Shown piece by piece: positions 1-55,121 of a DNA stretch of 64,000 bases (its first letter is position 1; every line of letters starts with the position of its first letter). This stretch comes from Haliotis rufescens (lineage: Eukaryota). The position numbers were made by a program, and so were the translations under genes. The notes beneath the pieces are model-generated. The model was given only the letters and a program-made list of their open reading frames with translations. It made no database searches and was not told where the DNA came from. The stretch is from NCBI RefSeq assembly GCF_023055435.1, contig NW_025963791.1:2604001-2668000 (forward strand), in the 5' to 3' direction.

Positions 1-300
1 TTCTGCAGGATTCGGGGTGCGTGGGGTCTGGCGTTGACATGCTGATAAAGGACATCACGTGGCAGCTGTTGTAGAAATGGTAGGACAATCGGACCAGGTG
101 ACCAGGGGTGTTCTCTCCTGCCCACAATTCCCCCTACACTATAACATCCCCCCCCCCCCCCCCCCCCCCCCCCTCCACATACGCCACAATTCCTGAACGC
201 GGCATGCCGCCGTTCGTTCTTTTCCATCAGCTCTGAACAGACAGAACCGGCTTTTATCAGTGAAGACGACCCTATGCCAGTAACGTCTGTTGCATCAGGT
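1..300 (-). mobile_element. Degraded Tc1/mariner transposase fragment, runs off the window start
   Basis: Minus-strand translation gives VVFTDKSRFCLFRADG (first catalytic D motif) and PIVLPFLQQLPRDVLYQHVNARPH (decayed QDNARPH); interrupted by a poly-C run. Confidence 0.8.
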
Positions 301-1504
301 TAGTTACAGAAACGCGGGAGCAACCAAACGTTCTAGCAGTGTGGGCATCGATAGCTCCCATCTGTATCATAACTAACTGGACTTTTAAAGTCAGTTAACT
401 CTCTTGCTTCGGGAAGATGTGCTTATTCATGAACAACGACGACATCTCATATTATATGTAATACGGCTATTCCACATTCTACATACCACTCCTTTGATTG
501 ATGGGTGCTCATGTTCACTGGAAATATTAGGAATTGTTATATTCCGTATTTTGAATTAGCCCGGTCTCCGGTGTTTTTATAATCAGTGCACTGCACATAG
601 CCACATCTGAAACGTTTGGAACGGGTAGTGTGTCGGCGAATTTCCATAGAGCCCGTAGTATTTTTCAACCGTTTAATGGAATGCACAATTCTGGTCACTA
701 TCATATATTTTGTGCCCAAGGGCTGTTCCACTGACCTCGATAATCTGTTGCATGAAGGCACAGTTCTCTAGGGTCACTTATAGCTAACACCGAAGGCTAT
801 GAGGGGTATTTAGGTCATAATCAGCTCCCAGCAACCACTGCCTCAAGCGATATTGTTTACATAACAGATCAGTTTTATGGCCCCGTCATGGGTGCTCCAA
901 ATATTGAAACAGGGGAAACACATTTCCTAGAATCATTTCAACAAGCAATACTGATATCCAAGTAACTTTTGGTAACTCTTAATGATGTCTCCATTGCAAA
1001 TTTTACGGATTTTTATTTTTATGCATTATTTGATTTTTATCAGTGGAATGGTTCGTGAGGGATTGATCCGAATGGAAAAACAGTTTTAGTATTGTTTAGT
1101 AGAATGGATGAATTGTTATGTTACATCTTAATAGTATATCAACCATTATCATATGAACTCATTCATATGAACCAGTCATCGTTACAAGGAAACCACATTC
1201 CACAACAGTTTTTGAAACTGGACAACAACAAAAAACAATACATAGAAAAAGACCAAGTAACTCAACCCATCATGATCATAATTACTTTTCTTTGAAAGAA
1301 AGAAATGCAAAAAAGAAACTGACCAAAAAATGTAAAACAAAAGAGGGGGAATATCCGTTATTGATAAGTTCTGGTTTTGAAATGTTTTCCACTTCAAATG
1401 ACATACATCAACATGGCCTTCATTCTACAGGCACCTCCTCCATGGTTAGGACTGGTGATGTTCGCACCGTCTCACAAAAGATCAGATTTTGGAAAATTCA
1501 TATA

Positions 1505-3020
1505 CACTCTCTCAAAAAAGAAACGCAACCCCTATATTTTCAAGATCTTTATCTCAATATTCAAGTTATTATAACACATTTATTATTGAAGACAACAATA
1601 TGAAATTTGGCATGGTGGCAGTACAGTTATGCAAGTTTAAGTCCAGACTTTGACAGTTCTCTCACTAAGATTGACTTGACGCAAGGGGGAGTGTTTCTCA
1701 GTACCTCGTATGAGCGCCACGAGTTGCGATCACAGCATTGCACCTCCTAGGAACAGAACGGATTAGACGCCGGATTCTTTCCTGAGGGATTGCTCTCCAC
1801 TCCTCCTGCAGTGCAACGGCTAGTGCATCCAACGTCTGCGGAGGCGGTGTACGTGCACGTACTCGTCGGTCCAGATAATCCCAAAGATGTTCGATTGGGT
1901 TGATATCTGGTGATCGGGAGGGCCATGGTAACACGTTGACGTCAGAATTCTGGAGAAAATTCACTGTTGCATGAGCAGTGTGCGGCCGGGCGTTGTCGTG
2001 TTGATAAAGCTCCCTCTGTTGGTCGATAATCGGCAGAAGATGAGGCTGTAAAACGTCATTGATATAGCGCTGGGCTGTCAAATTGCCACAAATGATCACC
2101 AAGTCTGATCTTTGGTTGTAAGACATGGCTCCCCTCACGATGATGCTCCCTCCACCAAATCTGTGGACCTGCCGAACACATTTCGGGGCAAAACGTTAGT
2201 TTCCTCTTCTATAGACACGCTGTCTTCCGTCACGGCGTTGCAAGAGAAAACGTGATTCGTCACTAAACTAGACGCACTTCCAGTTTCTGAGGGTCCATAT
2301 CTGAACGTTGGTGCACCACCTGAGTCGTTGGCGTCGATGTTCGTGGCGTAAAACAGGTCCAATCAGTGGTCTTCTTGCACGTAGACCGGCCTCTCGTAAT
2401 TGTTTGTGCGGACACTCTTCTCAAACCTGGCACCTATGTTGCAGTGACGGTAGGTGTGGCTAGCCGATTACGTAGTTGGGTGACCCGGATGAATCGATCC
2501 TGAGGTGGTGTGGTAACCCTTGGCCTACCACTTCTGGGGCGATCTTCAGTTGCATGAAACTGGGTGTATTGGCTCAAAAGTCGGGAAATCGTTGTTTTAT
2601 GAATATTGAGGTGCCGGGCAACGTTTCCAAAGCTTTGTCCGGCCTCAATACGACCAATGGCGATATTTCGATCTGCAGCACTCAACCGTGGCATATTCGA
2701 CCTTGTCTTTCGGTGAAAATGATAGAGTGAATTGCTAATCAACACGTACTTTTATAAACCCATACTTCTACTGCTCTTTCCATGAATTGCACGTGCATGA
2801 GGCTTTTGGCATGGGCCACGAGAAAATTTTGCTCACTATGCTAAAAGTAACAATAAAATGCCCTTTTGCACGAAAATTGGTGTGTTTGGGCGCTTACGTT
2901 AATAAACAATGTACATGGTATGCGTGCATATCAGAAAAACTGTATTTACAATGAACATTTTTCTTCTTGGGTCTTTCTCACATTTTCAGACTGGGGTTGC
3001 GTTTCTTTTTTGAGAAAGTG
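1505..3020 (-). mobile_element. Full-length Tc1-family (DD34E) DNA transposon, transposase disrupted
   Basis: 28-bp TIRs CACTCTCTCAAAAAAGAAACGCAACCCC at 1505-1532 and 2993-3020 (1 mismatch), TA on both sides (1503-1504, 3021-3022). Confidence 0.95.
1698..2694 (-). pseudogene. Tc1 transposase pseudogene
   Basis: MPRLS...GRPR paired-like HTH from ATG 2694; stop at 2434 and frameshifts; FSDESR near 2250-2270; HDNARPH...SPDINPIEHLW with 34 residues between D and E; ends GAHTRY at 1698. Confidence 0.93.
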
Positions 3021-3509
3021 TATGTTCATGAAAAATATAAAAGGGACTTCAAAAATGCTTTGTATGAATTATTAGCTAGGTTAAAATAGGTCTTCAGCAA
3101 CACATGCTTGCCGTAAGAGGCCAGGGTAGTGAGGCTCGCTGATTTGGTGGATGCATGACATCATGCATATTCCAATTGTGTAGTTCATGATGTCAATCAC
3201 TGGATTGTCTGGTCCAGACTCTGTTAATTATAGTCCACCGTCAAATAGCTGCAGTAATGCTGATTGCGCGTTAAACAAGAAAACTATTTTTTTAAATAGG
3301 CCTACCCTATTCAACTGTATCAACTGTAATGCCCAGTACTCAGAATAAGTAAAAAAATAATTTCACAACAGCGTTATTATATTTGTGGTTAATATAATTA
3401 TGCTCTTTCGTGCCCATTAGTAACATCATAATTGTGCATTTGTGAGGCATCACATATGGCTCTGCTTCAATGTTTTCTTGTTTACCTTTATTACGTGAAG
3501 TTTCGGCTA

Positions 3510-3713
3510 CCCATGGCCATGCGGCATGTATTGTTTTTTTCGCCATTTTTTCCATTATCTTAAAAAAAAAAAAGGGCCGTGGACGTGTATTACTTGCAGC
3601 AAATGGCATTGTTTTTGGACGATGTGTTTTGCATTGATTTAACTATCGCTTGTGTTTTTAATTTTTTGCAATTTCATTTTTAAAGTGGTAAAGTTTCTTT
3701 TGGCCGTCAGTTT
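3510..3713 (-). mobile_element. Tc1-like terminal fragment (same family as 28166-28724)
   Basis: Ends GGTAAAGTTTCTTTTGGCCGTCAGTTTA; same TIR and subterminal sequence as the 28.2-kb element. Confidence 0.7.
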
Positions 3714-3735
3714 ACGTAGTGAATGAACTGTTCAG

Positions 3736-4075
3736 GAACTGTGACATACTGAAGAAGGAAACATCCCGCTTCGATAACAAGAAGGACATAACATTTGGTG
3801 AAATGATTGGAAATGTTCGCAATCCGACGACTAGTACTTTCACATCCAGCCATAAGGTACAGGTATGCCTAGATAAATCTTTATTGACACATAATGATCT
3901 ACCAACCGCAAGGTCCAAATAATTATTCTTATCTATCATGCTGTGATTTTACACGTTTTCTTTGAATATGGAGACATAGACCACATTAAGTATGTCCCAG
4001 CATGGTAAATATAGGATTCAATCCCAATCAATCGGTGGTTCGTAAAAAACTATAAATTTCAAATAATTCAGTTTA

Positions 4076-4165
<90 letters not shown>

Positions 4166-7100
4166 ATCATTATTTACAATATTGTCTTGCGTTGTGCTAA
4201 AGGTCGGAGTGTCTACACAGATTACAGTTGTAGACTATGATAATGGAGTAGATGATATCATCGAGGTGCTGAAGTACGAACATCGTTTTGAACGCTTTTC
4301 CATGGTAACTCCGTCCAAGTACAAGAGCGGTGCTTGGCTGAAAGGGCGAGCGTGTCGGTGAGTATAGCAATCACACTTTTTAAATATACACACTTTTTAA
4401 AATGTACATGGTACTTTAATTGTCCGAGTGAACGAAATGAGGATCGCTTTTCCTTCAACTAATTACTACCACGCCAAATTCATGCTTTTCGTCATAGTCA
4501 TGTAGGCAACACATTTGCATACATGTATCATTGATACATGTACTTTTAAAAATATAAGAATGTCTCGGCCCAAACAGTTCTTTTGTGGTTGATTCAGCAT
4601 AACTGAAATTAAATGACAAACCTCGGGGATAATTTACGTATGTCTGGAGTAATTTCTTAAAGCGAAATTCCAATCATGACTCTATACCGAGCTATGACGT
4701 CATGCAACGAGGTAACAAAGCGGTGATGTCAGAGTTTAACTGGATGTCGATTTCGTTACGCGATTTTTGTTTGGACTATGCATACACCCGTTAGGCCAGC
4801 AAAAACATATCTCAGAAATTGAAGCCAAGTTCGGCAAGGTTGACTCATGAATTTTATAGTCAGTTAACTCTCTTGCGTTGGGAAGATGATATTATCAGTG
4901 AAAACCTTGAACTCCACCCCACTACATAGTCCTTGGTACCTAAGGGACATAACTCTACACAGCAAAACGCAAATTACGCGGTATGCAATTCTTACTATTA
5001 AGGCTGAAAGAAGTTTGACCTTTAGCAAATCAGATTTCCCTTTGTGTGAGTTAGAATCTCAGATTGTTCTAAAAATATTATAGTAATAATGTACATACAT
5101 GTATATTCATAAAATGATTGTACTAAAGTCATTTGAGATACAACATTGCATAATTATTTTTTTTATAGAAAGGAGAGTAGCACTTTAGAAGAATTATTTC
5201 TGAGTTTGTACATTGTGTAGAGAATGGCGGCTTGGGATTGCGAAAGAAATATCATTAATCATTACATGACTTAATTTATAAATAGGTTCCATTGATAGAA
5301 ATAATGGTTCAAATTGAGAAATTTTACAGAAAAGATCGCTCCTTAAGTCGGAGTAAAAAGGACAAATATGAGCAATGACATTCGTCATTCGTTCATGTAT
5401 GTGATTCCAGGTGATATCTGTAAGGAAACATAGGTACACAAGCTAAAAAAGACACATTTGGTGTTATGGCATGTGCACAGATTACTTAAAACAGTTCATG
5501 CTTATGTGAACAAAATAAGTAAAACCTACATGGGTAATGAATTTATAATGTGTATTTTACAGCTATAAGCTGTTTATATATCTGGGTCTCTGCTGTCTTC
5601 CTATTTTAATACTATAGGATACATATAACTAATTTTGTGGAGTGTGATCGTGGATGGTACGGTCAACATTGCGACAAAACCTGCCAAGAATTCCAAATGA
5701 CCTCCTATCCAGGCATGTACGAGTGTAACCACAACGGATATTTAGTCGCGTGCAAAGACGGTAAGTCACAGCTATTAGACATATTATGAATATGGTCCTA
5801 CTCCTTGGGCGGTAGGCGTAGACTGGTGATTAAAACGTTTGCTCGTCACGTTGCAGTTTGATTTCCAATATGGGTACTATAATGTGTGAAGCCCATTCTT
5901 CTTTTCCAAGCCTTGATATGGCTGCTCAATGTGACGCAAAAGCAAGGTCGCTCCTTAACTCACTCACTCACTCATCTGTGTAGACTCACTCACTTACTCA
6001 TCTGTGTACATTACATATGGATGTGTTTAACTGCACCAAATATATGCCATATCTATGATACATATTCAAGGTGCATTTTGAGTTTCTTTCTTTTTCCGAT
6101 GGTTAATAATAACTCATACGTGCGGAATATATAATCAATAAAGTACTGCTTTTAATCCGTGAAACAATTTTCATGTTCCTATAATAAATTCAGTTATGTC
6201 GACATGATTGATATATTTAACAAATTAAATTACATGTGGGCTATTATCATAAATCAGTCGCTTTTTTGAAGAGAAAACAAACTGTCAGCATGAAATGACG
6301 ACGGTAGTTCGTCCTAGGACGCCGCCGATAGACGTAATTCGAGCAACATCTCCATCGACAACGACGTTACACGCCATCTTAACGACATCGGCACCACAGA
6401 GGACTACATCACTGTATACCCATGTAACGCAGTCTCAACGACCCTACACAGAAAGATCAACAAGTGACGTTAGCAAATTTTCACCATCAACTGAGGTACA
6501 TAGACATTTTAATTCCAATAATATAAATCTAAACACAAGCAGCACTGTTAGCACTGACATCGATACAAGCAATACTATCGGTACATCGCCGAATGATTCT
6601 CCATCGGTTCCAACTTATGACATCGATACAAAGAGTACTACCGGTACATCGTGGAATAATTCACCGTCGGTGCCAGCTGAGGACATCGATACCGACACTG
6701 ATGACCTTGCAGAGAAGATCAGCCATGTTTCCAACTTGACAGTCCCACCATGCATCTCTATCGGGAACCTACAACACATTCGTAAGTCATCATATGTAAT
6801 CAGACAGTGCACAAAATGACAACCTCAGAACAATAACGTACACATAGGATGCGTGAAAACACAAGATGTCATAATTAAACAACTGTATTCAAACAAATAA
6901 GTAATATAAATTATAATTTATTGCAGGAAAGTTCCTCATGCACACGTTCACGACAACACAATGTCCATACAATGAAGTGGTAAAAACGTATCGGCCACTT
7001 TGTGAAAATCCAGATAAGATATATTTATCAAACATAGACGCAGAAGTTCTAAATGTGAAATAAAAGGTCCTGCTGATTGAAAAGATCCCACAATATATAA

Positions 7101-8773
7101 TTATATATTTTAGAAATTATGTTTTACATTGGGCAAGTAACTTCCGGTACTTTCTAACCATCTTCCTAACAAATGGCCATAATACTTGACTAACAACAAA
7201 TTGTTATACGTATGACCACCATACAGGCAGAATATGCTCCCCTTTTAGCGAACATTTGGTCTCTTGACGAACACTATTTGATAAATACATGCTCATGAAA
7301 TAATCAGATAATGGAAATGATTATTTCTCTTATATTTCAAAAGATATGTTTTTTTAATATAAAATATACATAACAAAAATGTTTTCATTGACGTACACAT
7401 CGGTGTGAATCTTTTATAAGGTCTAATAACACTTTAATATGATACATGATTGTGAAGTTTTTCAAATTATCCATTGATAAACTGTGGAAAGTTGTATTTA
7501 AAACATTTTATCACCCAAAACTGGCTCCCACAGGAGATGTAGCTTGGGTGAGATCAAGCGACAGTAGATATCGCTGCAATCAAACTGCATCACAATGCTT
7601 TGCAGACCATTGTGACGTCATTGGTTACCGTGACGTCACAATCAAATGACATCACTTATGGCTCTGCTACTGAAGCTGTTAGCAGTACCTTTTACACTTA
7701 AGACACTGCTTATTACTGTCTACAAACTGAAAAAGTTGGAAGAATGATGTTGGATGATAAATAAAATCTCACCCTCATGTCTTTTGATATCAAATATATC
7801 AACACTCGATGATAAAAGTGGAAAAAATCCTCGACAGGCCTCGGAGTTTTCCCACTTTTATCAACTCGTGTTGATATATTTCATATCAAAAGACACTGAA
7901 ATTGTTTGCTACATTCAAGATTCCTAATGAAAGGATAAGAAATACATCATTTATAGAAATTATTATGGTCTTTGTATGTACAATGACGTATACATATCAA
8001 CAAATACATACATGTATAACTAAACATTTCTTGACTCTCATCCGATTGAAAATCTATTCTTCAAACTAACTTATTCTTCTGACTGTTCATTGTCATAAAT
8101 GATTCTTTGATGCAGGAAATTCCCTGCTGTTGACGTTTCGAATCGCCGATAATGTTTCCCTATCTCACAACAAGCGGAACGTAACTTTGGCTCTCGAATC
8201 ATGGAAACGACTATCAAATGTGAACAATTTCACAATAATCATTGCAAATATAAGGTATGATACTACCACTACTACTACTACTACTACTCATTTATATTAT
8301 TGAATTTTCTGTCCCTTTTGACACGAATGTGTTTGACAAGATTCAGGAAATACATGGCAAATATGCGAACCTTGCTTTCGAAATGTCTATCTTGCATCCC
8401 AAGTACCAAGTTGTCCGACTCCCCATTGTTCTCGGTGCTTGATGTTTGGTACCTCCCAATCTGTTGACAGACATTGGGAGAGTACCCATGTTTGCCACCA
8501 GTAACACAGCCCTTCTGACATTCTTGGTAATGCAGAAGGCTTAAGTGTTGGGGAGTCTTCACATTCTCCGAACAGTTATGGGTGGGTTTGACTAGGCAGT
8601 GCTTCCTGGGAGAAGTGCCATTCGCTGGTTTGGCTGCTTGTAGAGGGGGCAAGGGCCCTGAGCTGATGATGAACCTCACCAGCCTGACTGTGACATGATC
8701 ACCCAAACCATCTTTGCTTCATTTCTTATTTTATTCTGTAAATATTGGTTGGTTGGTTAATAATAATAATAAT

Positions 8774-8806
<33 letters not shown>

Positions 8807-10265
8807 TTATAATGGAGAATACCTGGGTTTGCAACCAGGAATACAACCCTTCTTCCAATCTGGGTAAGGCAGAAGGCTGCAGTGTCGGGGAATCTTCACA
8901 TTCTTCTTAAAGTTCTCGGCGGGTTCAACAAGGCAGCGCTTGATACCCCAACGTTTTTTGTTTGTGGTGATTATATTCGGAAAGTAATTCTATTACAGTG
9001 GTTCTTCCTTTAGTCTTGCTGTCACTGTCCCAAGCGAAGTAAGTGTATCTACTTTGATGGAAGCCGTGTTTGAAGAAGGAAACCTTGAAGAGTGGATTGA
9101 GAAAGCCATTGGACACAGCATCATTCCAGTAAATCGACCTCTGTGCTCACCCTCCATGATAAAACAGGTTAACCATAATCTTTTAAGCTATTGTCGTTTA
9201 AAAGAAAGGAAATTGTCTCTATAATACAATAGATTGAAACAATCTTTGGATTATTATGAAGAGGATCGGGCGTGTTTGGGAATATGACAATATGACCATT
9301 TGGTTAAGTAAGTATGACCATGTTAACGATGAATACGTTGCTTTTAGTCACATTCCAGCAACACAAAATACCAAGATTTAGCTTCACACTTTGTACCAAA
9401 ATATGTTCGAAAACGGGCCTTCGGTGTAACGAGCGAAAGCTTTGACCACTAACCTACCTCTCCATCCAACCAAATGGGGTGCCCATGTAGGGTATCGACC
9501 CGTGTCCTTGGCGTTACCAACCAGCGCTTTAGCCCCTAGGATACCGTCACCATGACAAATGTGTTCATGTTGGTATAGCAGCGAAACTCAGAGAATAACA
9601 ACATAAACCATATAAAACAACGAACAAATTGAAAAGAGAGGGCTGTTACATGTACCTTCACCAAATAAAGGGGCAAAACGTGACTCTGATACATCTTGGA
9701 AGTATTATGACAAAGAAGATCATTGCAAATGTGTGATCCTTGCGTCTTCTCGTAGGTGAAGATATCACAACGTGCTGAAGATCATTCCTCGGCTATCATC
9801 GGTATTGTGATGGGCGCCCTATTTCTTGTCGCAACAACAGCAGCTGTTGGGCTTAGCTATCAGTGGTGAGATACAGTCGGATTCACTGTCTTTGCTGAGT
9901 GACATAATATATATATAGTGGCATCCTCTGACAGGGTATATCAAACAATCCAAAGTTGACCCCTCCCTTTTCCCTTAAATGAAACCGATAGTAAGGTACA
10001 TGTAAACTAGGTGACCCCTTGGACATTGATGGACATAGGCATAGTCTTAGTAACAGTGATGTGTATATAAGTAACAATATGTGACATCAAGAGGTAATGT
10101 TCAGCTTCTATTTTACATGGTCTTAAAACGACTACCTGATGATACCTCTAACGGTTTTTAAAAAATTCTTTCAGGCATCTGATGTTTCGGAAACGTACGC
10201 GGAAGGTGTGCCCAGAAAACTCTTCTGTTGAACTTCAGATGGTTGAAGAAGAAACCAGGGATTAA
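3736..10265 (+). CDS. Delta/Notch-ligand-like type I membrane protein, paralog A (C2-DSL-Thr/Ser stalk-juxtamembrane domain-TM); 5' exons not found
   Basis: Phase-compatible GT-AG exons: 3736-3856 (or 3862; NCDILKKETSRFDNKKDITFGEMIGNVRNP), 4203-4357 (ITVVDYDNGVDDIIE, C2-like), 5618-5760 (DSL: CDRGWYGQHCDKTC...YECNHNGYLVACKD), about 6272-6781 (T/S/P-rich), 8116-8254, 8999-9167, 9756-9865 (TM: AIIGIVMGALFLVATTAAVGLSY), 10175-10265 (HLMFRKRTRK...ETRD*). Confidence 0.8.
4076..4162. repeat. (TTA)n microsatellite
   Basis: Read directly. Confidence 0.95.
7778..7895. repeat. Long imperfect inverted repeat, probable transposon terminus
   Basis: TGTCTTTTGATATCAAATATATCAACAC ... GTGTTGATATATTTCATATCAAAAGACA. 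Confidence 0.75.
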
Positions 10266-11339
10266 CACTTACGGTGGACGGGTCTCGGTTTCAAACAGGA
10301 CGCTATACGTTTAACGGTCTGGTGTATATGACATTTTGGCATCCATGACAACTGAGACATTGTCTATGTGTAACGAGAGTATCAAGAATACAACAGCCAC
10401 ACTGTCCAGACAAACAGTGGTGTTTGATTGATTCAAAATAGTTTGGGCTGTCAGTTGTCCTTAGTCTGGCTGCGTTGTATAACTTTATCCCATATTAAGT
10501 TGACAGACCATATAAAATTGAAATACTGATCGGCGTTAAGCCAAACTCACACTTATTTCTTATACGGTGCCTTTTGTGCTGATTTTAAGATTAATATGTT
10601 TTATGCGAGACACTAGTTATTTCATTTTCAGGCCCAATTACGCCCGCAAGCTGTGGGCATGTTGCTGCAATATCGCCTTTTGTAATCAAATACCTCCTTT
10701 TCTCACTCACTAACAAAGTAAAGGAAAATCACACTTGACCTCTCAACTACTAGTGGCCGAGGGAGTATTTCACTATTGCATTTTCTTCAAGTAACAACCA
10801 CGATGAAAACCATCGACAATAACACCAATATTTCAACACCTTGAAATAAATATGTTACAATATGCATCTGCCGTCCAATTGCAAATAGGCACGTACAGCG
10901 TTGTCATTTGATCTGTGCGTGTATTGTGATGAGAACAATACTGAATGTGAGTTCCTGTGAAACCTTGCATGTTTCCCTTGCATGACTTATGTTAGTGCTT
11001 TTTTAACCTATTCAGCACTACCTCTTTATCGCTTTTATCCTATGAACGTTAGTATGAGTGCGACAATCTCACAAAGAGGCTTGAAATATTGTCACCAAAT
11101 ATAACCAGATCGAAGGCGCCCTTCACAATGACGGCCGGTAATATAGTGCTGGTTCTACTGCCACAAGTACGTACAAAGATATTCTTATTTAACTTAGTTC
11201 AGTGGAAATATGTACCTTTTTTATTACTTAAGGAATAATTAATGTCATGACACGTTTAACTATTTTAACTGGATGATGGTTGAAGTCACATATGTTTCTC
11301 GTGTATCAAACATTGGCATGCAGCCATTGCAATTTTCAG

Positions 11340-14300
11340 ATATGTTGTGCAAGCATCGCTGTGACACTTAAGTTCGTGAGATATGACCATGTCGGTGAAC
11401 GCAGGATGGCAAATGGAAGATGTTGTACTACGTTCTTTTCGAAGTGCATAGTTCCATGTGATCCGTCGATAAGAGTGTGTGTTTCGTCTCAAACAATAAC
11501 AGGGTAAATATATACAACACTTAAAGAGCGAGTGAGATGGATAATGCCGTTTTGAACAGTATGCAGCTCTACCACGGCGTGTCCGCTTATGTGGGAGGAA
11601 AATCCGAAGTGATGCATGAAACAGACGTTTGCCACTTTGGTGAAACCTACAAGCACGGGTATGGTGCTGACAAACCTAGAAACTTATTCGGGGTAAACCG
11701 GGATTCGAACCAACGATTATAGGTTCCTGGCGTGTCCAAGGGAAGCAACTCCATGCCATACCTCCGACATTATAAAAACGTCCTTGTTTGTGTTAAAGAA
11801 CATGATTCAAGTCGGTCCTTCCTCCAACTTTAACATAACTCGTGAATTGATTAAATAGCATTAAAAACGGCGATAAACCCCTAATCAGTCACTCTTTTCA
11901 GAATGTGTAATATATATAAAGGAGAGACGAAACAGTTCGGACGCATGAAGACAATCACTTTTGACAATAACATGGGAGCTGTACCAAACCCTCTCGTACT
12001 TCCAGTGGGCCAATGGGAGGTATGTGTATTAATTTTGTAGATACAGTTTTAATGATTGTTACTCGCTCTCTTTGTCTTCACATTTGCATGCATGGGTAAC
12101 TTGAAAGTTTGTTTGATTGTGGGTTTATTTAACGCCGCTTTCAGCAATATTCAAGCTACAAGGCGGCGGTCTGTAATAAATTGAGTCTGGACCAGACAAT
12201 CCAGTGATTGGCATGAGCACCGATCGACTCATTTGGGATAAGATGACATGCTAACTAAGTCATCGAGTCTGACCACCCGATCCCGTAAGTCGACTCTTAC
12301 GACAAACATATGGGTTGCTGAAAACCAATTCTAACCCGGATCTTCACGGGTATGAAACGAAAATACGACCCTTGAACCTTGGCCTATCCACGACTTATTT
12401 CAGATAATTAATCTTGATTTCATGAATCATACCTTTAACCTTAACTAAATGTGTTTAGTTCTGTAGTTACATGTGGTTCACAGTAAAGCTTCTTATAGAT
12501 ATTTTATTCATTTCAATCCTTACAAATAAATACTTTATACCGTATTGCCAGATGGCATGTGGCCGAGTCAGAATTCTAATATAATGTTTACCACTCTAAT
12601 GATAGATCCAGAAAGGTGTGACAAGTGTATTTTGTTATTTTCACGATGACACAATATCCCAATACCAAGTTTTGTTGATACTGATACCATATTTTTATCC
12701 AAAAGGAAGGTTTGTATTTCATCTTTACCGTTAACAACGGAGGTGAAGGAAAAAAACCTTCATTGATGGAACGCCTTAATTGGCACCTCAACAAAACACA
12801 GATAGTGTATCAAGGCATTGGGAAGATATCTCCGCATAAAATATCCGGAAAACATGTTGTGTAAGTATGTCATTGGCACACAAATACATGTACCTACAGA
12901 CATGCTAGGCTGGAGCTTCATAGAGTATTTTTTGGACGCGTTTTTCATTTGATATTTCATGTTGAACACGTATCACGTCACAGAGCAAGGTTGCATGGAC
13001 ATCACGTAAAATATGCTATCGTTGTAGTGTCGAAATTTACAGACGTCTGATTAAACTAGTATCATGATTGGGTGGAACTTTAAAGACGTCACGTGAAACA
13101 TGTACATAGTATCATGATTGGGAATAACTTTAAAGACGCCACGTAGAACCAGTATCGTGACTGGGTAGAACTTTGAAGACGTCACGTGGAACATAGTATC
13201 ATGATTGGGAAGAACTTAAAGACGTCGCGTTGATCCAGTTCCGGACAGAGTAGGACTTTATAGACGTCACGTGGAACACAATATCGTGATACGATAGAAC
13301 TGTTCAAAAGTGATTTGGAATTAGTGTCGTTATAGGTTCGAACTGTACGAATATCACGTGGACCCAACATCGTTATATATTAGAACTGTAAGGGTATCAC
13401 TCGGACCATAAACCTCGATACAGTGTAAAGTGACATGATCCCAGTATGTGACAGTACTTGTTTTAACATGCATGTCGGTTCTCAGTGCCGTCGGCTTTGG
13501 TCAGTAAGGTCACTTTGCTTAACATTTCAATGCATAATAATTAAATGGACAATCACATTAAAGAACCCGTGAAGATCTGGGTTAGATGCAACCAATGCTT
13601 GCCGTAAGAGGCGCCTTTGCCTGTCGTAAAAGGCGACTATTTGGATCGGGTAGTCAGGCTCGCTGACTTGGTTGATTCATGTCATCATATCCCAATTGCG
13701 TAGATCCATGCTCATGATGTCAAACACTTGATTGTCTGGTCCAGACTGGATTATTTACAGACCGCTGTATTAAGCTTGAATATTGTTTGAAACAACAAAC
13801 AAACAAAGAACAATATTAAAGTATCGGCATTTATGGCATTGTGATCCAAATATTCGGAAAAATATAAAATTGTCAATTTAATTGTAATTATAAACCATTT
13901 CAGTCAGACTGCGATGCTTATTTTTGTTGATATCAGGTTGACACTTCACATTGGTATTGACTGCTCCAAGGATTTCTACGGGAAGCAATGCAAAGTATAC
14001 TGCAAAGACTCGGATGACCAGACAGGGCATTACAACTGTGAGGACGATGGACACAAGCTCTGTATGAAGGGTATGTACGTAATGGGTTAGAATTGGTCTC
14101 CAGCAACATGTGCTGGTCGCAAGTGGCGACTTAATGGACCGGGTGGTGAGACTTGGTGACATTGGTTGATGGCGTGTCATCGTACCCGACGGCGTGGAGC
14201 ATTGCTCACACTATCAATCAAAGGATTGTCTGGTCCAGACTCGATTGTTTACAAACCGCTGCCGTCATTAAGCTGGAATATTTCCGTGGTTATTGCGTTA

Positions 14301-17300
14301 AACAATAAACATACACAGAGTGTATACGCGTGTATATTCAGACATTTGATTTATTTATGACGCAGGATAATAGAATACAAAAAAAAAAACACACGAAGCA
14401 CACGAGACCTATCCTCATATGTTCTGAAGCCAATGTTAAAAATATATGAGGTTTTGGTCATCACTAAAGTGTTTATTTGTGATGTCTTATCACAGATGAG
14501 GTAAACATTGTTACTGATAGAGGAATATCTTAATATACTGTTTGCTTTGCTAACACCACCTCGTTTGGTGAGATTGTCCTATTTAAAACCATGTCTTACT
14601 GCAAGAATGTCCTATTTAAAACCATGTCTTACTGCAAGGATTTAATTCCGGTGGAAAGTACTCAAACGCAACGCATCGGTGCAAAGTATGTTAGTATTAT
14701 TTTCTGAAGCAAAAAAATGCAGTTTAATGTAAAGGAATACTTAAATTTAAAAATCTTAAAATTATCGTAAGACAGTTGCTTTGTAAAAGTATTAATTATG
14801 GACAACAAATCCATTATCGCGCAAATGGCAAGCATTAGGTATGGTAAGTGTAAAGGATCTCATTTCATCAGGTTGCTGAAGATCTCGACAAAACAATAAG
14901 TGTGATTTCAGTGTTATTGAATCTGCATAGAATAACTGGTGATGTGAAAATGCGGCGTGATCGTTGTATACCTAAAACATCTACAACAGAGTGCAGAAAC
15001 AATTGCAAGACTTAAGCGTTAACGTTTGTCTCACATCACCACCATGCATTCACGCTTTCAACCAATACTTTGCTCTAGAATAATGCGTGGAACTTGAAAA
15101 TGGAAAATGATTAATTATCTTTTTTGTTTCAATTGTATTTACACTTAAGGGTGGAAAGGCAGTAATTGCACCGAGCAAGAGAACGCCTGTGACGGTAACA
15201 GCTGTCAAAACAATGCCACGTGTTACATCACGAAAGGACCAATTGCAACATATCGATGTGAATGCACTTCAGCCTATACAGGTATGTTACAGTCTTAAAG
15301 TAAATTTAGATAGTTCTCACTGTTTTCTATGAAACATTTTATAATTTTGTTTTCACAAGTACGCGCATACTAGTAATAATAATACGAAATGTACAGCAAT
15401 CTTCCAACCACAAGTTTGTGATTTTAACGATGCTAATTCGGCCTGACATAATTTCTCTTATCAAGTGATTTTTTTTTGGATACATATTTCAATATGAAAC
15501 TGTAGGAACGTACTGTACAGAACGCTGGAACATCCTGAGGAATGCAACGATTGCTCAAGAAACATCAACGCTCGCACCAACGACTCGTGTGCATCCCAAA
15601 CCTACACCAGCATATACGGCATCAACGAGGCCTCCGACATACTCAAAGACATGTACACCTTCACAAGGTATATATGGGGATGCGGGTAGCCCAGTCGTCT
15701 GAGGTGGCGCAATTTGCTGTGATTATGGGTTCGAATCCCGGTTCGCATCGTCAATAATTCACAGGTTTATCTGGCTACGATCCTCCATCTAGGTGAGGTG
15801 AGGTGAAATGGGGTTTAATTTCCAATATCATTGCACTTGAATAGCGACGTGCATGCGCGCGCGCGGGCGTGTGTGTGTTACGTGTGTGTGTGCGGCTGTT
15901 TGTGCAAGTCCGGACTAATGCCGATTTTATAGATCTAGCCCACGGAGATACCATGTCGCAGTTTAAGATGAATACCCCACTCGGACACAGTAGACTGACT
16001 CCGAGCCGACCAGTCCTGTCCCCTTATTTACGAGCGCCAGGCAGGGTAACAACAAATATCACCTTATTACTTTTTTTGGTAAAGCGGCCAGGGATCGAGT
16101 CCGGGCGGACGCTCTACCACTAGTCCACGGAGGCGGTCTACCTCCATCAAAGGCATAGTAGCTATATAGTGTTTACAAAACCAATGAAGTATTGACGATG
16201 CCCTGTTCGCCCTGAAATACTGTCCACAGCGGCGTTAAATCCAACTCCTTGACGTACCCACTCACAAGATATATACACAATCCGCACATTGCTTTTGAAA
16301 ACGTTTAAAAGATATCATTGTTCAATTTATCTTTTTATTTGAGTAACTATGATCGTTTCATCATATCAGAAAAGTTACAGACTGAAGTTGTGTTCCTGCA
16401 ATGTAGCGTTAACAAGTTTAACTGTAACACTACAACCACGAAACGTTGAGTGAGTCACAGTGGTGAGTCACAATTAACCCCCACCCCCACCCCACCCCCC
16501 CCCCCCCCCCCCCCCCCCCCAACGCTATATCATGATTCAATTCTAAATCAGATTCGCCCCGATGGTGGACCTTGGTCTAGATATGTCAGGACCAAATCTA
16601 ATCCGTGGATGAAGGTTTCACAACATAACGCCTTCGACGCTTCGACTTGCATGACCGGACACGCCGTGACATAACTGAACTTTTGTCAAACAAGGCGTTA
16701 ATCTTCACTGACGTACACGTAACTCACTGTTCAGTATATTGATCTCGTATTGATCTGGCTTAGCCAATTCGTCGAACAATTTGCTTGCTCTTTATATAGT
16801 CAGTCGTGTTTAATAAGGCTGTGAAACACCATAAAATAACGGGAAATACGATATGCTACATACAGCTATATGACGGCGGCCGGGAACTAATCGAGCCCAG
16901 ACAAGTCAGACAGGTGATTGATAGTATGAGCAACATCCCGGGGTTCGATGACACGCAATCAACCAAGTCACCGTATCCGCCCAATGTGTCTCCTCTTACG
17001 ACCAGCAGACTTTGCTGGGGACCTATTCTGAGCCGGAATTCCAACGGGGTTGTGACTTATAAAGCCTGCTAATGGTCTACCATTTTCCTATGACATTGTT
17101 TTCCAGCCTTACAGTTCGGGATAGATGGTCAGACGTCATCGCCCGACGTGGTTAGAAACGACATAAAACGTTTCTTGTCAGAAAGAGGCGTGAGTGACAT
17201 CTACAACGTCGACATCATTGAAAAGGATATATCAGGGTTAGTTTAAATACGTCCATATTAATCATAGGAAGCATGATGTTCGTTCATCTTTGTTTGTGTG

Positions 17301-19968
17301 TTTGTTGTTTAACGCCGCCATCAGCAATATCCAGTTATATGACAGACTATTTAGTGTTCGACATCATGAGCATCGATCCACGCAACTGGATACGATGACA
17401 TGCATCAACCAAGTCAGCGAGCCTGAACACCCGATCCCGTTAATAAGACACATAGTCGACTTTTAGGATAATCATGGAAGCTAAAGACCTACTCCAATCC
17501 GGATCTTCACGGGTTTGTCCTGCAATCCAAGCGCCTTGTAGCAGTGGTTGCCGGTCGTAGTCATCAGTCCGTTTGTCTATGTATTTCTTTAGTATACTGT
17601 GTCTGAGTGGGGTATTCATGATAAACTGCGGCGTGTATCTGAAAGGGGACACATTAAAAATAATCAAATACCCAAAGAAGCCGCCAATCCTGATTAGTTA
17701 GGAATGTGACGTTGATCAACAGTGAGGACTTAACTTTAGGGGACGTCATCTGATCTAATACCATTTGTACAACACGACTTCCTGAAGTTGAAACACCTTA
17801 TATGAAGCGTTGTGCACGAATTGATTAAAGGCTATTATTTTGTAAGGTGTATTTTCGGGTGTAGGTGTCCAGTTAGTAAAGGCGTTACTTCGTCACGCCT
17901 AAAACATGGATTAAATTATTTATGTCAATAGAAAGTGTGAAGCCTTTTCCTTGTGCAATAGTATACTGGTATATTGTAAAAAGCGGCGTGCAATACAACT
18001 GACTCACTCTGGTATATTTCAGATATAGGCATCCACATGTCCTCATTACACCACTACGTCAGCCTAACATCACTGAAAACATAGAGCTGCTAATAATAGA
18101 ACATGTGAAACACCTTACTGGACATCACCCTGAAGAACCACATTGTGTCGATATGAAACAACCACGCAACTGGATACGATGACATGCATCAACCAAGTCA
18201 GCGAGCCTGAACACCCGATCCCGTTAATAAGACACATAGTCGACTTTTAGGATAATCATGGAAGCTAAAGACCTACTCCAATCCGGATCTTCACGGGTTT
18301 GTCCTGCAATCCAAGCGCCTTGTAGCAGTGGTTGCCGGTCGTAGTCATCAGTCCGTTTGTCTATGTATTTCTTTAGTATACTGTGTCTGAGTGGGGTATT
18401 CATGATAAACTGCGGCGTGTATCTGAAAGGGGACACATTAAAAATAATCAAATACCCAAAGAAGCCGCCAATCCTGATTAGTTAGGAATGTGACGTTGAT
18501 CAACAGTGAGGACTTAACTTTAGGGGACGTCATCTGATCTAATACCATTTGTACAACACGACTTCCTGAAGTTGAAACACCTTATATGAAGCGTTGTGCA
18601 CGAATTGATTAAAGGCTATTATTTTGTAAGGTGTATTTTCGGGTGTAGGTGTCCAGTTAGTAAAGGCGTTACTTCGTCACGCCTAAAACATGGATTAAAT
18701 TATTTATGTCAATAGAAAGTGTGAAGCCTTTTCCTTGTGCAATAGTATACTGGTATATTGTAAAAAGCGGCGTGCAATACAACTGACTCACTCTGGTATA
18801 TTTCAGATATAGGCATCCACATGTCCTCATTACACCACTACGTCAGCCTAACATCACTGAAAACATAGAGCTGCTAATAATAGAACATGTGAAACACCTT
18901 ACTGGACATCACCCTGAAGAACCACATTGTGTCGATATGAAACAAGGAACAAAGGTGGGTTTTGTTAAATCATATTGTTTAAACGTTTCACAACGGGGGA
19001 TAGTGGATAGAGTATCTGCCTGGGGAAGCGGAAAGTCGCTGGTTCGATCCCTGGCCACGTCATACCAAAAGACGTTTAAATTGTGACTTGGCATCTCATA
19101 GGGCTAACACTATAAAAGACTTAAGTCTGGGCTAGCACACGTAGCCACACACACGGATGAGCAATATCCCGAATTATTTAATCATGGCTACCGAGTGGCA
19201 TTGTTTAGACAGACGGAATCAATAGAAACGACGAGTCATAGTATGACTATATCAAGACTGCATTCATTTCAGTATCTTTTTACAGTACCTTTTAAAACCA
19301 GAATCCAGACGAAATTTGGTAAACCCCTCGGATGACATATCATTGCTAATTGTCAGGGAAATTGGTTGAGTCTGGAATATGATATGGCAGAGATCAGAAG
19401 TTATCACGAACCTGTTAGTTTTACATTGTAGGGTTTCCGTTAATAGTCTTACTGTTGTATTTTATACATTCCAGGGTCACGTTCAAGCGAGATTTGATTC
19501 CAGCGAACCGCGGATTTCGTCCGCAGCTGTAGCTGGTGTATCAATGGGGATACTGCTGCTTATATGTATAATTGTGGGTACCATTATCCTGCAGAGGTAA
19601 GGATACTTGTCATGATGTTTGGTATTTTTTACGTGTGGAAGACATAACTCAGAATCCCTGACATTTCAACACATGCATAATTTAGTGGCAAGTGTATGGT
19701 AACACTAAAGCACGTTTTTTATGCCTGCAAATTAAAAACTATCCCCTAAAATCCAAACGTTATCTCCTTCAGATGCTGGGATTATAAAATATGGCCTTCA
19801 TCCCAAAGGTCAACAGAAACTGGAGCTGTTTCACATAGAAAGGAATGTCAGACGCAGTACAACGTCGATGTCTTTGTGCCGGGGAGTGATGGAGAATGTG
19901 CCGTGATTTCGTTGCCCCCAAGATCATGTTCTTTGGGCAGGATTGTTGAGGGGAAACACCGATTGTGA
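11340..19968 (+). CDS. Delta/Notch-ligand-like type I membrane protein, paralog B (MNNL/C2-DSL-EGF-Thr-rich stalk-juxtamembrane domain-TM); start exon uncertain
   Basis: Phase-compatible exons: 11340-11503 (LKFVRYDH..ANGRCC..C...CDPSIRVC, like the Delta N-terminus), 11902-12019, 12706-12860, 13937-14070 (DSL: CSKDFYGKQCKVYCKDSDDQTGHYNCEDDGHKLCMKG), 15150-15281 (WKGSNC + EGF CDGNSCQNNATC..YRCEC), 15506-15667, 17107-17236, 18807-18954, 19475-19596 (TM), 19773-19968 (stop, AATAAA immediately after). Confidence 0.88.
12108..12351 (-). mobile_element. S2 retroposon copy
   Basis: Reverse complement begins ACCCGTGAAGATCCGGGTTAGAATTGG and carries the shared tail. Confidence 0.85.
13060..13400. repeat. 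Degenerate minisatellite of about 43 bp
   Basis: Recurrent GACGTCACGTGGAACATAGTATCATGATTGGG..AACTTTA. Confidence 0.75.
13564..13806 (+). mobile_element. S2 retroposon copy
   Basis: ACCCGTGAAGATCTGGGTT...GGATTATTTACAGACCGC...(CAAA)n. Confidence 0.85.
15791..16137 (-). mobile_element. SINE S1 copy inserted within an S3 SINE
   Basis: Reverse complement matches S1; S3 head lies at about 15678-15790 and S3 tail at about 16140-16265. Confidence 0.85.
17378..18945 (+). repeat. Apparently identical 784-bp tandem duplication inside paralog B
   Basis: Units 17378-18161 and 18162-18945; identical ORFs at 17440 and 18224 in the ORF track. Confidence 0.95.
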
Positions 19969-20284
19969 ATAAAACATGAACGAGTTTGGAGATGTGTTGG
20001 ATGGAAGATATACTTGCCATATCACTTTTCAAACCCTGGACCCATTCGCTGCCATACCTTCGTTTAGAAAGTGACGTAACTGTCCGCATTCCTCCTATCA
20101 GTAGCGTCACGCATAATTTCTCTCGCTCATGAGTGTTGTTTGATTGGACGGCTATTTTTAGCGGCATCTATTTCCCAACAATGCTATAATGGCGAATATA
20201 TCTAAGGATACACTGGATAATCGAGTATGATCAAACGGTGTAACTGATTTTTTAGCTGTTTTTGACTGTAAAAAGTACAATTAT

Positions 20285-20930
20285 AAACTGAACCGCAAAA
20301 GAAACGTCACCATGGATAGCTATATGAGAAACCGTATTTGTCCAAACACTGTAAACATACTTTGAGACATATTAAAAAGATGAAGCTTTGCAAAACTGAT
20401 CAACAACGTTGAAACTAAAGTGTCAAATGTTCTTAAAAGGAAACACAACACCAGTCTCTGAGAAAATGGCATCACAAGTCAGTATCTCGTGCGTCCGCCA
20501 AGTTCATTGATGACTGCCATGCAACGTCGATACATGGAATGGATGAGGCGGTTGATGAAGGCCATAGGCACTTGAGCCTACACTCACGCAGTTCAGCTGC
20601 AGTTGTCGGCCTTGGTCGGACGTCATTGAGTCGTCTTTGAATCTCGTCCTACAGGTGCTCAATGGGATTTAAATCGGGACTGAGGGCAGGCCACTGCATG
20701 GTTCTGATGCCATTCTGCTGGAGGAAGTCTCTTGTTGCAGTGTGATGTATGGCGTGTGGTCTCAAGACTTGATCAATGTACCGAGCTGCTGTGACACCAT
20801 TGCCTCTCCCTGGACCGATGTCCTGGAGTACCACGGGGCCGACCCTCTGTGCAAGATCAAATCCACCCCACACCACGAGTCTCTCTCAACATCCGAAAAA
20901 CGTTCCCCACGGCGTCCCCAGACTCTCAAA
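20285..20930 (-). mobile_element. Truncated Tc1 relic
   Basis: ORF 20649-20876 has MVWGG and WPALSPDLNPIEHL; C-terminus GGRTRY* ends at 20479; TIR-like TA-AACTGAACCGCAAAAGAAAC near 20284. Confidence 0.85.

Positions 20931-42288: not shown

Positions 42289-55121
<12,833 letters not shown>

What the first reader, a model, noticed from the sequence alone, without database searches (positions are those of the whole stretch)
3736..19968. Tandem pair of non-canonical Notch-ligand-like genes: C2-DSL on a mucin-like stalk with 0 or 1 EGF
Seen: two head-to-tail genes with matching exon phases and an identical 155-bp C2 exon length but low protein identity. Known: Delta and Jagged/Serrate have C2-DSL followed by several to 16 EGF repeats. 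Here A has none and B has one, followed by a T/S/P-rich stalk, a two-exon alpha/beta juxtamembrane domain and a short tail. Inference: a fast-evolving, lineage-expanded DSL family that may act as Notch decoys or modulators, or in recognition or immunity; the array may continue left of the window.
Basis: partly seen in the sequence, partly recalled or inferred. Interest (0 to 1): 0.7.

Follow-up and report, generated by a model that had tools for sequence, protein, structure and literature searches.

The report
Abalone Delta-like genes missing Notch-binding face
Two neighbouring abalone genes encode Notch-ligand look-alikes with zero or one EGF repeat that lack key Notch-binding residues, and they belong to a large, little-studied family in molluscs and their relatives that likely works in metal-dependent cell-surface recognition rather than as Notch signals or decoys.

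Summary
Genes A and B are head-to-tail open reading frames: C2–DSL–(0 or 1 EGF)–S/T/P stalk–two-exon domain–TM–short tail. A's first exons and a third paralogue (Z) lie left of the window. RNA-type contigs join A's DSL exon straight to its stalk. This abalone genome holds at least 24 such non-canonical DSL loci, 3 canonical ligands and one Notch. Similar proteins occur in other molluscs, a brachiopod, nemerteans, an annelid and a crinoid, and EGF-poor 'Delta-like/DSL-like' genes are in print, so the kind is known and not abalone-specific. I did not find in print that the class drops the Jagged1 F207 residue (4 of 55 keep it) but conserves four C2 aspartates that align with the metal site of tardigrade AMNP. 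A keeps all four and none of five Notch-face residues; B has lost three aspartates plus R203 and F207. Neither tail has a Mind-bomb box. B's juxtamembrane domain is predicted ferredoxin-like (SEA/MAD12-like). Best reading: stalk-displayed, metal-dependent surface-recognition proteins, probably neither Notch activators nor classical decoys; function untested. The scan's notes held no earlier report of this family.

The parts
3736..3856 (+). Gene A, C2 exon 2 (phase 2-0). C2 exon 1 and the signal exon lie left of the window (G000:C13:2602938-2603104 and probably near 2601978-2602026)
4203..4357 (+). Gene A, C2 exon 3 (155 bp, phase 0-2), holds the D-Y-D half of the four-aspartate site
5618..5760 (+). 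Gene A, end of C2 plus DSL exon (phase 2-1); none of the five Notch-face residues kept
6272..6781 (+). Gene A, last DSL cysteine and T/S/P stalk (47% T+S+P over 134 aa); joined directly to the DSL exon in contigs
8116..8254 (+). Gene A, juxtamembrane domain exon 1 (phase 1-2)
   Evidence: fold read by eye only
8999..9167 (+). Gene A, juxtamembrane domain exon 2 (phase 2-0)
9756..9865 (+). Gene A, transmembrane exon (phase 0-2)
10175..10266 (+). Gene A, tail exon to stop; tail about 32 aa, 2 Lys, no IKN, KQxN or NxxN motif
11128..11166 (+). Gene B, candidate signal-peptide exon (tentative)
   Evidence: no transcript support
11340..11503 (+). Gene B, C2 exon 1 (CC...CD; weak MNNL match)
11902..12019 (+). 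Gene B, C2 exon 2
12706..12860 (+). Gene B, C2 exon 3 (155 bp); D-x-D absent
13937..14070 (+). Gene B, DSL exon; R203 and F207 equivalents are S and T
15150..15281 (+). Gene B, end of DSL and the single, ordinary (non-DOS) EGF with an O-fucose consensus (consensus recalled)
15506..15667 (+). Gene B, end of EGF and short T/P/S stalk
17107..17236 (+). Gene B, juxtamembrane domain exon 1 (predicted beta-alpha-beta)
17378..18945 (.). Exact 784-bp tandem duplicate; the first copy holds a donor-less copy of juxtamembrane exon 2 (from 18023) used by the NCBI model, which stops before the TM
18807..18954 (+). Gene B, juxtamembrane domain exon 2, complete copy
19475..19596 (+). Gene B, transmembrane exon
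19773..19968 (+). Gene B, tail exon to stop; tail about 66 aa, 3 Lys, no IKN, KQxN or NxxN motif

Best explanation
A and B are old, highly diverged tandem paralogues of a widespread non-canonical Delta-like class, encoding predicted single-pass surface glycoproteins that likely hold a C2-DSL head above a glycosylated stalk and a predicted SEA/MAD-like spacer and likely act, without activating Notch, in metal-dependent recognition of membranes or lipids through the C2 loops. Shown: gene structure, EGF count, class membership of the C2 domains, loss of the DSL Notch face, absence of DOS EGFs and of Mind-bomb-box motifs, and a conserved four-aspartate C2 site in the class and in A. Inferred: surface display, metal and lipid binding, lack of Notch activation. 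B has lost three of the four aspartates, so the metal step would apply to A (and Z) rather than to B; B may be a weaker or differently tuned copy.
For: C2 of A, B, Z score 79.5, 66.5, 100.1 bits on a profile of nine non-canonical C2 domains; the seven canonical ligands printed score 29.5-58.8. They fall outside the canonical Delta/Jagged group (SH-aLRT 91, quick tree). In 55 non-canonical rows the four aspartate columns hold D in 39, 43, 47, 47; the F207 column holds F in 4 and R203 holds R in 19; in 9 canonical-side rows F207 is F in 6 and R203 is R in 7. A: D,D,D,D and T,Q,F,S,P at F199,R201,R203,D205,F207; B: T,D,N,G and Y,K,S,D,T. JAG1 F207A and R203K abolish Notch binding while C2 aspartates serve Ca-dependent lipid binding separately. 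The four aspartates of class member P0035 align with AMNP D92, D98, D161, D163 (fold Z 13.5, rmsd 3.0, 139 aligned). One Notch in the genome with a canonical-looking EGF12 against at least 24 such loci, of which 1 keeps both R203 and F207. Tails lack IKN/KQxN/NxxN, which canonical abalone Delta has in part.
Against: No binding, localisation or expression-pattern data. DLL3 has a divergent DSL and still cis-inhibits Notch in vitro (search listing); C. elegans DSL-1 has one EGF and is a ligand. B keeps three similar face residues, the G-H motif and an O-fucose consensus, and lacks the aspartate site that the explanation rests on. A D-x-D loop is generic to C2 domains, and the profile was built from rows chosen as non-canonical. 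The juxtamembrane domains of A and B do not score on the class profile (A -1.1 bits, 315 of 500 shuffles as high; B no score) nor on each other. Platynereis DSL1 and DSL3 are expressed in neural tissue alongside Notch.
Confidence: 0.5

Rival explanations
1. DLL3-like modulators: they cannot activate Notch in trans but would bind or retain it in cis and damp signalling.
For: C2-DSL fold and six DSL cysteines kept; no endocytosis motifs; DLL3 precedent (listing); B's EGF has an O-fucose consensus.
Against: The DSL face is needed for cis as well as trans action; A has none of five residues and no EGF; 24 or more divergent loci for one receptor, with the face column unconstrained while C2 aspartates are constrained.
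Confidence: 0.2
2. Genuine but weak or co-ligand-dependent Notch activators, like the EGF-poor, DOS-less ligands of C. elegans.
For: One-EGF ligands exist (DSL-1); 19 of 55 class rows keep R203 and one abalone paralogue keeps R203 and F207.
Against: A and B lack R203 and F207; abalone keeps three canonical ligands and a canonical Notch; tails lack Mib boxes needed for the pulling force.
Confidence: 0.1
3. A is a membrane-tethered AMNP-like metal-binding protein with Mn-dependent peroxidase or metal-buffering activity on an exposed epithelium.
For: AMNP and its relative 7df2 are the only non-Notch-ligand PDB hits under E 0.7 of the class C2 profile (E 0.045 and 0.0035), above all ordinary C2 domains by fold (Z 13.5 against at most 11.9); CD-CD and D-x-D align residue for residue; A keeps all four.
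Against: E-values are modest, a second class member gave no AMNP hit, and A's own first C2 exon gave none. AMNP's Mn site also uses D131, not checked. Shared ligands fit plain Ca binding as well.
Confidence: 0.12
4. Decaying duplicates of a birth-and-death family, with no present function; B is broken by the 784-bp duplication.
For: Very long branches; exact duplicate inside B and a headless, TM-less NCBI model; A absent from the protein collection; low contig depth.
Against: Ten or eleven exons each stay in frame with GT-AG introns although A and B are 24% identical; A is spliced; cysteines and aspartates kept; paralogues have intact orthologues in other Haliotis.
Confidence: 0.08

Closest known systems
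Lophotrochozoan 'Delta-like' and 'DSL-like' proteins (Gazave et al. 2017, PMC5356439; He et al. 2021, PMC8166818)
   Same: Signal peptide, MNNL/C2, DSL, fewer than seven EGFs, TM, tail; uncertain orthology; DSL expansion in molluscs.
   Different: In the passages read these papers count 2-3 Delta-like genes a species and do not describe a stalk, a juxtamembrane ferredoxin-like domain, loss of the Notch face or a conserved aspartate site; abalone has at least 24 loci.
Canonical Delta and Jagged/Serrate
   Same: Homologous C2 and DSL (class profile E 1e-16 to Drosophila Delta); type I topology.
   Different: No DOS EGFs, 0-1 EGF, no VWC, extra introns in C2 and DSL, no R203/F207, no Mib boxes; outside the canonical group in the tree.
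Mammalian DLL3; C. elegans DSL-1/LAG-2
   Same: Divergent DSL or very few EGFs in a Notch-ligand scaffold.
   Different: DLL3 keeps seven EGFs and did not bind liposomes; no shared ancestry shown here; worm receptors differ from a canonical Notch.
Tardigrade AMNP/g12777 and C2 protein 7df2
   Same: C2-type sandwich with CD-CD and D-x-D metal ligands that align with the class and are complete in A.
   Different: AMNP is a stand-alone Golgi protein without DSL, stalk or TM; activity of the abalone C2 is untested.
SEA-like membrane-adjacent domains (PCDH15 MAD12, mucin SEA)
   Same: [quoted passage not shown]
   Different: B's own model matches ferredoxin folds in general (best Z 7.7; MUC16 SEA Z 5.9); no Pfam SEA hit on single exons.

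Membership tests
Canonical Delta (Gazave 2017 definition) | MNNL/C2 plus DSL | tested here: met
Canonical Delta (Gazave 2017 definition) | At least nine EGF repeats, first two of DOS type | tested here: not met
   0 in A, 1 ordinary EGF in B
Jagged/Serrate | 16 EGFs and a VWC domain | tested here: not met
Jagged/Serrate | JAG1-type juxtamembrane domain (PF23575) | tested here: inconclusive
   No real match anywhere in the genome, not even at the Jagged locus; class profile does not score two Jagged proteins
Delta-like (fewer than seven EGFs; Gazave 2017) | SP, MNNL, DSL, under seven EGFs, TM, ICD | tested here: met
   signal exons tentative; A has no EGF at all
DSL-like (Gazave 2017) | An additional conserved domain | tested here: inconclusive
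   B has a predicted folded juxtamembrane domain, not matched by sequence to the class domain
Notch-activating DSL ligand | F199/R201/R203/D205/F207 face | tested here: not met
   A 0 of 5; B D205 identical, Y and K similar, R203 and F207 lost
Notch-activating DSL ligand | Mib1 N-box and C-box in the tail | tested here: not met
   No IKN or KQxN in either tail; simple motif test only
Notch-activating DSL ligand | Binding and activation of Notch | not testable with these tools
   needs assays
SEA / MAD-like domain | Ferredoxin-like fold adjacent to the TM | tested here: met
   B: (pLDDT 63-76, single sequence); class; A not folded
SEA / MAD-like domain | Sequence or profile match to SEA | tested here: inconclusive
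   Atlas feature hits to SEA clusters at 0.82 and 0.84, under the 0.9 bar; no Pfam hit
AMNP-type metal-binding C2 | CD-CD motif and D-x-D (D92, D98, D161, D163) | tested here: met
   Met in A and the class, not in B
AMNP-type metal-binding C2 | Mn/Zn binding and peroxidase activity | not testable with these tools
   needs purified protein

The most novel reading that the evidence does not exclude
The non-canonical C2-DSL class is a large, old family of Notch-independent surface receptors whose working part is a metal-binding C2 of the AMNP type; gene A is its stripped-down form, an AMNP-like Mn/Zn-binding (possibly peroxidase) head on a mucin-SEA stalk. Notch-ligand C2 domains and the tardigrade stress protein would share this ancestral site, which most canonical ligands have partly lost.
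Probability: 0.15. Interest if true: 0.8.

Novelty: new variant of a known kind. Interest (0 to 1): 0.5.

Why it matters
Databases label these proteins 'delta-like' or 'jagged-like', so mollusc transcriptome studies may count them as Notch signalling. If most cannot bind Notch, those readings mislead, and a family of two dozen abalone surface proteins has an unknown job. The contrast between a lost Notch face and a conserved metal site gives a direct test (metal, lipid and Notch binding of A against B and a canonical Delta) and links the Notch-ligand C2 to a tardigrade stress protein, which bears on what that domain did before or beside Notch.

Tried and rejected
Missing EGF exons: none by regex or profile in A or B. 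A candidate exon near 6927 has no good donor and no contig cover; left out. No RNA holder was listed on record; joints for B were crowded out by repeats (604 rows not shown), and both lay calls are spent. Word-based protein searches found only B's own NCBI model and nothing for A; weak evidence. PF23575 search was uninformative. Leave-one-out profiles of juxtamembrane exons did not recover A or B (ranks 37, 3333, 13505, 3269 of 27201); that profile also held one segment (C13:10907709) that the NCBI model P0068 does not use. The shuffle count for B was not obtained (script error). Foldseek on B gave nothing under E 0.001; its N-terminal 141 residues were modelled under pLDDT 50. The careful tree did not finish; A, B and Z are unresolved long branches, so their mutual monophyly is neither shown nor excluded. 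No complex prediction was sent: the spliced C2 could not be given, the Notch exon lacks its end cysteines, and a pass would rest on likeness to solved pairs. Cordle 2008 was not held; its residues were taken from a review and two primary papers. A supplement search of PMC5356439 found no DSL-like text (figures not held); bioRxiv supplements were not seen and may discuss AMNP homologues.

Full report
1. What is there. The window is G000:C13:2604001-2668000. B's DSL exon matches an NCBI protein named 'delta-like protein 1 [Haliotis rufescens]' (P0001, 246 aa), so this is red abalone. Joining exons by coordinates gives gene A as 549 aa with two exons left of the window and gene B as 499 aa, both without internal stops. 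Order: signal peptide (tentative in both), C2 in three exons and the start of a fourth, DSL split by a phase-1 intron, no EGF in A and one in B, T/S/P stalk (134 aa at 47% in A, 35 aa at 60% in B), two-exon domain, TM, tail of about 32 or 66 aa. A and B are 24% identical over C2-DSL. An EGF profile found only B's EGF and one at -7.3 kb among 2357 segments. That one belongs to a third gene, Z: C2-DSL-EGF-stalk-TM with the same phases and no juxtamembrane domain. A profile of first C2 exons finds only Z, A and B in the 204 kb held around the window.

2. Transcripts. No run on record as RNA was listed. Of 4 runs laid on 4960-7540, X3 and X4 (one study) have a contig that skips 511 nt from A's DSL exon to its stalk exon; the tool draws the joint four bases left of my GT-AG intron of the same length, which I read as one substitution in those samples; X1 covers the stalk exon only, X12 neither exon. 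On 1-20000, contigs lie on A's exons and 3' end and on B's first C2 exon with 24 letters left over, but two contigs run across B acceptors unspliced and no B joint was among the rows shown. B's middle junctions agree with the NCBI model, which stops in the first copy of an exact 784-bp duplicate.

3. The family. The genome search lists 25 DSL matches (150 of 336 candidates scored). With a motif scan of 804 kb fetched around them (26 motifs; four more read) I count 3 canonical ligands and at least 24 other loci, not all checked for intactness, with 0 to about 49 EGF motifs after the DSL. Clusters lie on C13, C68 and C112. NOD matches once and LNR three times at one locus plus one stray: one Notch, whose EGF12 looks canonical. 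phmmer with P0001 gave 1584 hits at E 0.001, 150 listed. Of 30 looked up, named non-canonical ones come from gastropods, bivalves, a cephalopod, a chiton, Lingula, two nemerteans, Owenia, a crinoid and, with tandem DSLs, Nematostella. Several are C2-DSL-EGF-stalk-TM like Z. In a quick tree of 67 C2-DSL rows the five labelled canonical ligands lie on one side of a branch (SH-aLRT 91, with four unlabelled rows); A, B, Z lie outside, unresolved, on branches of 1.51, 1.61, 1.43.

4. Notch-binding features. The Jagged1 face is F199, R201, R203, D205, F207 (review, passages and section 10 read, PMC3415683); R203K and F207A abolish binding (passages, PMC5538765; PMC3888931). In the alignment A has T, Q, F, S, P; B has Y, K, S, D, T; Z has Y, R, E, D and a gap. 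All 3 canonical abalone ligands keep F207 and R201, 2 keep R203; 1 of 24 other loci keeps both R203 and F207 (read by eye). Activation needs Mib1 boxes, IKNTWDK and KQLNTD in fly Delta (passages, PMC11887331); neither tail has IKN, KQxN or NxxN (the NxxN motif is recalled), while the C223 Delta tail has IKN and NxxN.

5. What is conserved instead. Among 55 non-canonical rows four C2 columns hold Asp in 39, 43, 47 and 47; among 9 canonical-side rows in 3, 1, 2 and 1, with gaps in my pieced abalone rows. A has all four, Z three plus Glu, B one. A model of class member P0035 (pLDDT 73, 12-row alignment) matches Notch ligands first (Z 14.6-16.0), then two tardigrade proteins (7df2, 7dbt; Z 13.5), then ordinary C2 domains. 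A C2-only profile of nine rows hits 7df2 at E 0.0035 and AMNP at E 0.045; P0035 aligns its CD, CD and D-x-D to AMNP's, which by chain position are D92, D98, D161, D163, the Zn ligands, two of them also Mn ligands (passages and section 7, bioRxiv 10.1101/2020.11.06.370643; 'Notch' occurs 0 times in its main text). Against this, P0127 and A's first exon alone gave no AMNP hit. Jagged1 uses D72 and D140 at the same loops for Ca-dependent lipid binding, so plain Ca and lipid binding is the simpler reading.

6. Juxtamembrane domain. [quoted passage not shown] The class has a domain at the same place: 14 homologues gave a profile that scores three abalone C68 paralogues at 27-94 bits and one C13 paralogue at 6.6, but not A or B. 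In P0035 it matches PCDH15 MAD12 (Z 8.7), a ferredoxin-like membrane-adjacent domain (passages, bioRxiv 10.1101/460097). So the fold class is supported for B, inferred for A from pattern and shared intron phases, and homology to the class domain is not shown.

7. Prior knowledge. Gazave 2017 (passages) defines Delta-like (under seven EGFs) and DSL-like (extra domain) proteins and notes their uncertain origin; He 2021 (parts 1-3 of 5 read) reports 138 lophotrochozoan DSL genes and discards unexpected architectures from its main analysis; Platynereis DSL1-3 expression is in PMC13172424 (passages). PMC5882950 and PMC10970066 (passages) add fast-evolving tunicate DSLs and an EGF-less sponge Delta. 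PMC4391858 was seen as a search listing only. Searches for abalone Delta-like expansion, DSL with SEA in molluscs, oyster immunity and ferredoxin-like Jagged domains showed no paper on this family's stalk, spacer, lost face or aspartate site; I ran no search for a published AMNP-Notch-ligand link, so its novelty is open.

8. Verdict. Real and correctly described. The kind is known; the anatomy and the contrast in conservation are a variant not found in print by these searches. Most likely Notch-independent, metal-dependent surface recognition (0.5), then cis-modulator (0.2), AMNP-like activity (0.12), weak ligand (0.1), decay (0.08). Interest 0.5.

Noticed in passing
G000:C13:2592378-2597830 (L002, L001), left of the window: Third paralogue Z: C2-DSL-EGF-stalk-TM in open frame, no juxtamembrane domain; tail exon not fixed.
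   Followed up: partly
window 17378-18945: Exact 784-bp tandem duplicate starting in a SINE-like repeat and ending 9 nt before an exon donor; recent duplication or assembly error; could yield a secreted form of B.
   Followed up: partly
window 1701-2751 and 3-299, minus strand; also 20652-20885: Tc1/mariner-like transposase fragments, the first two inside A's long intron (family recognised by eye).
   Followed up: no
G000:C13:10860000-10884300 (L037-L039): Two head-to-head paralogues with about 25 and 49 near-identical tandem EGF repeats in long single frames after the same type of DSL.
   Followed up: no
G000:C68:24425000-24740000: Cluster of at least nine C2-DSL genes with 0-13 EGF motifs and a conserved juxtamembrane domain; several carry a second, partial copy of the first C2 exon.
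   Followed up: partly
G000:C1:86893836, minus strand: Paralogue with a half DSL running straight into a stalk and TM, no EGF: A's layout is not unique.
   Followed up: no
window 8254/8999 and 17236/18807: Both juxtamembrane domains read I-S-G across the same phase-2 intron; in A a Ser follows the Gly in the beta2-beta3 loop, as in self-cleaving SEA domains (motif recalled).
   Followed up: no
window 54096-54509, minus strand: Open frame that reads like a synaptotagmin-type C2 exon of an unrelated gene.
   Followed up: no
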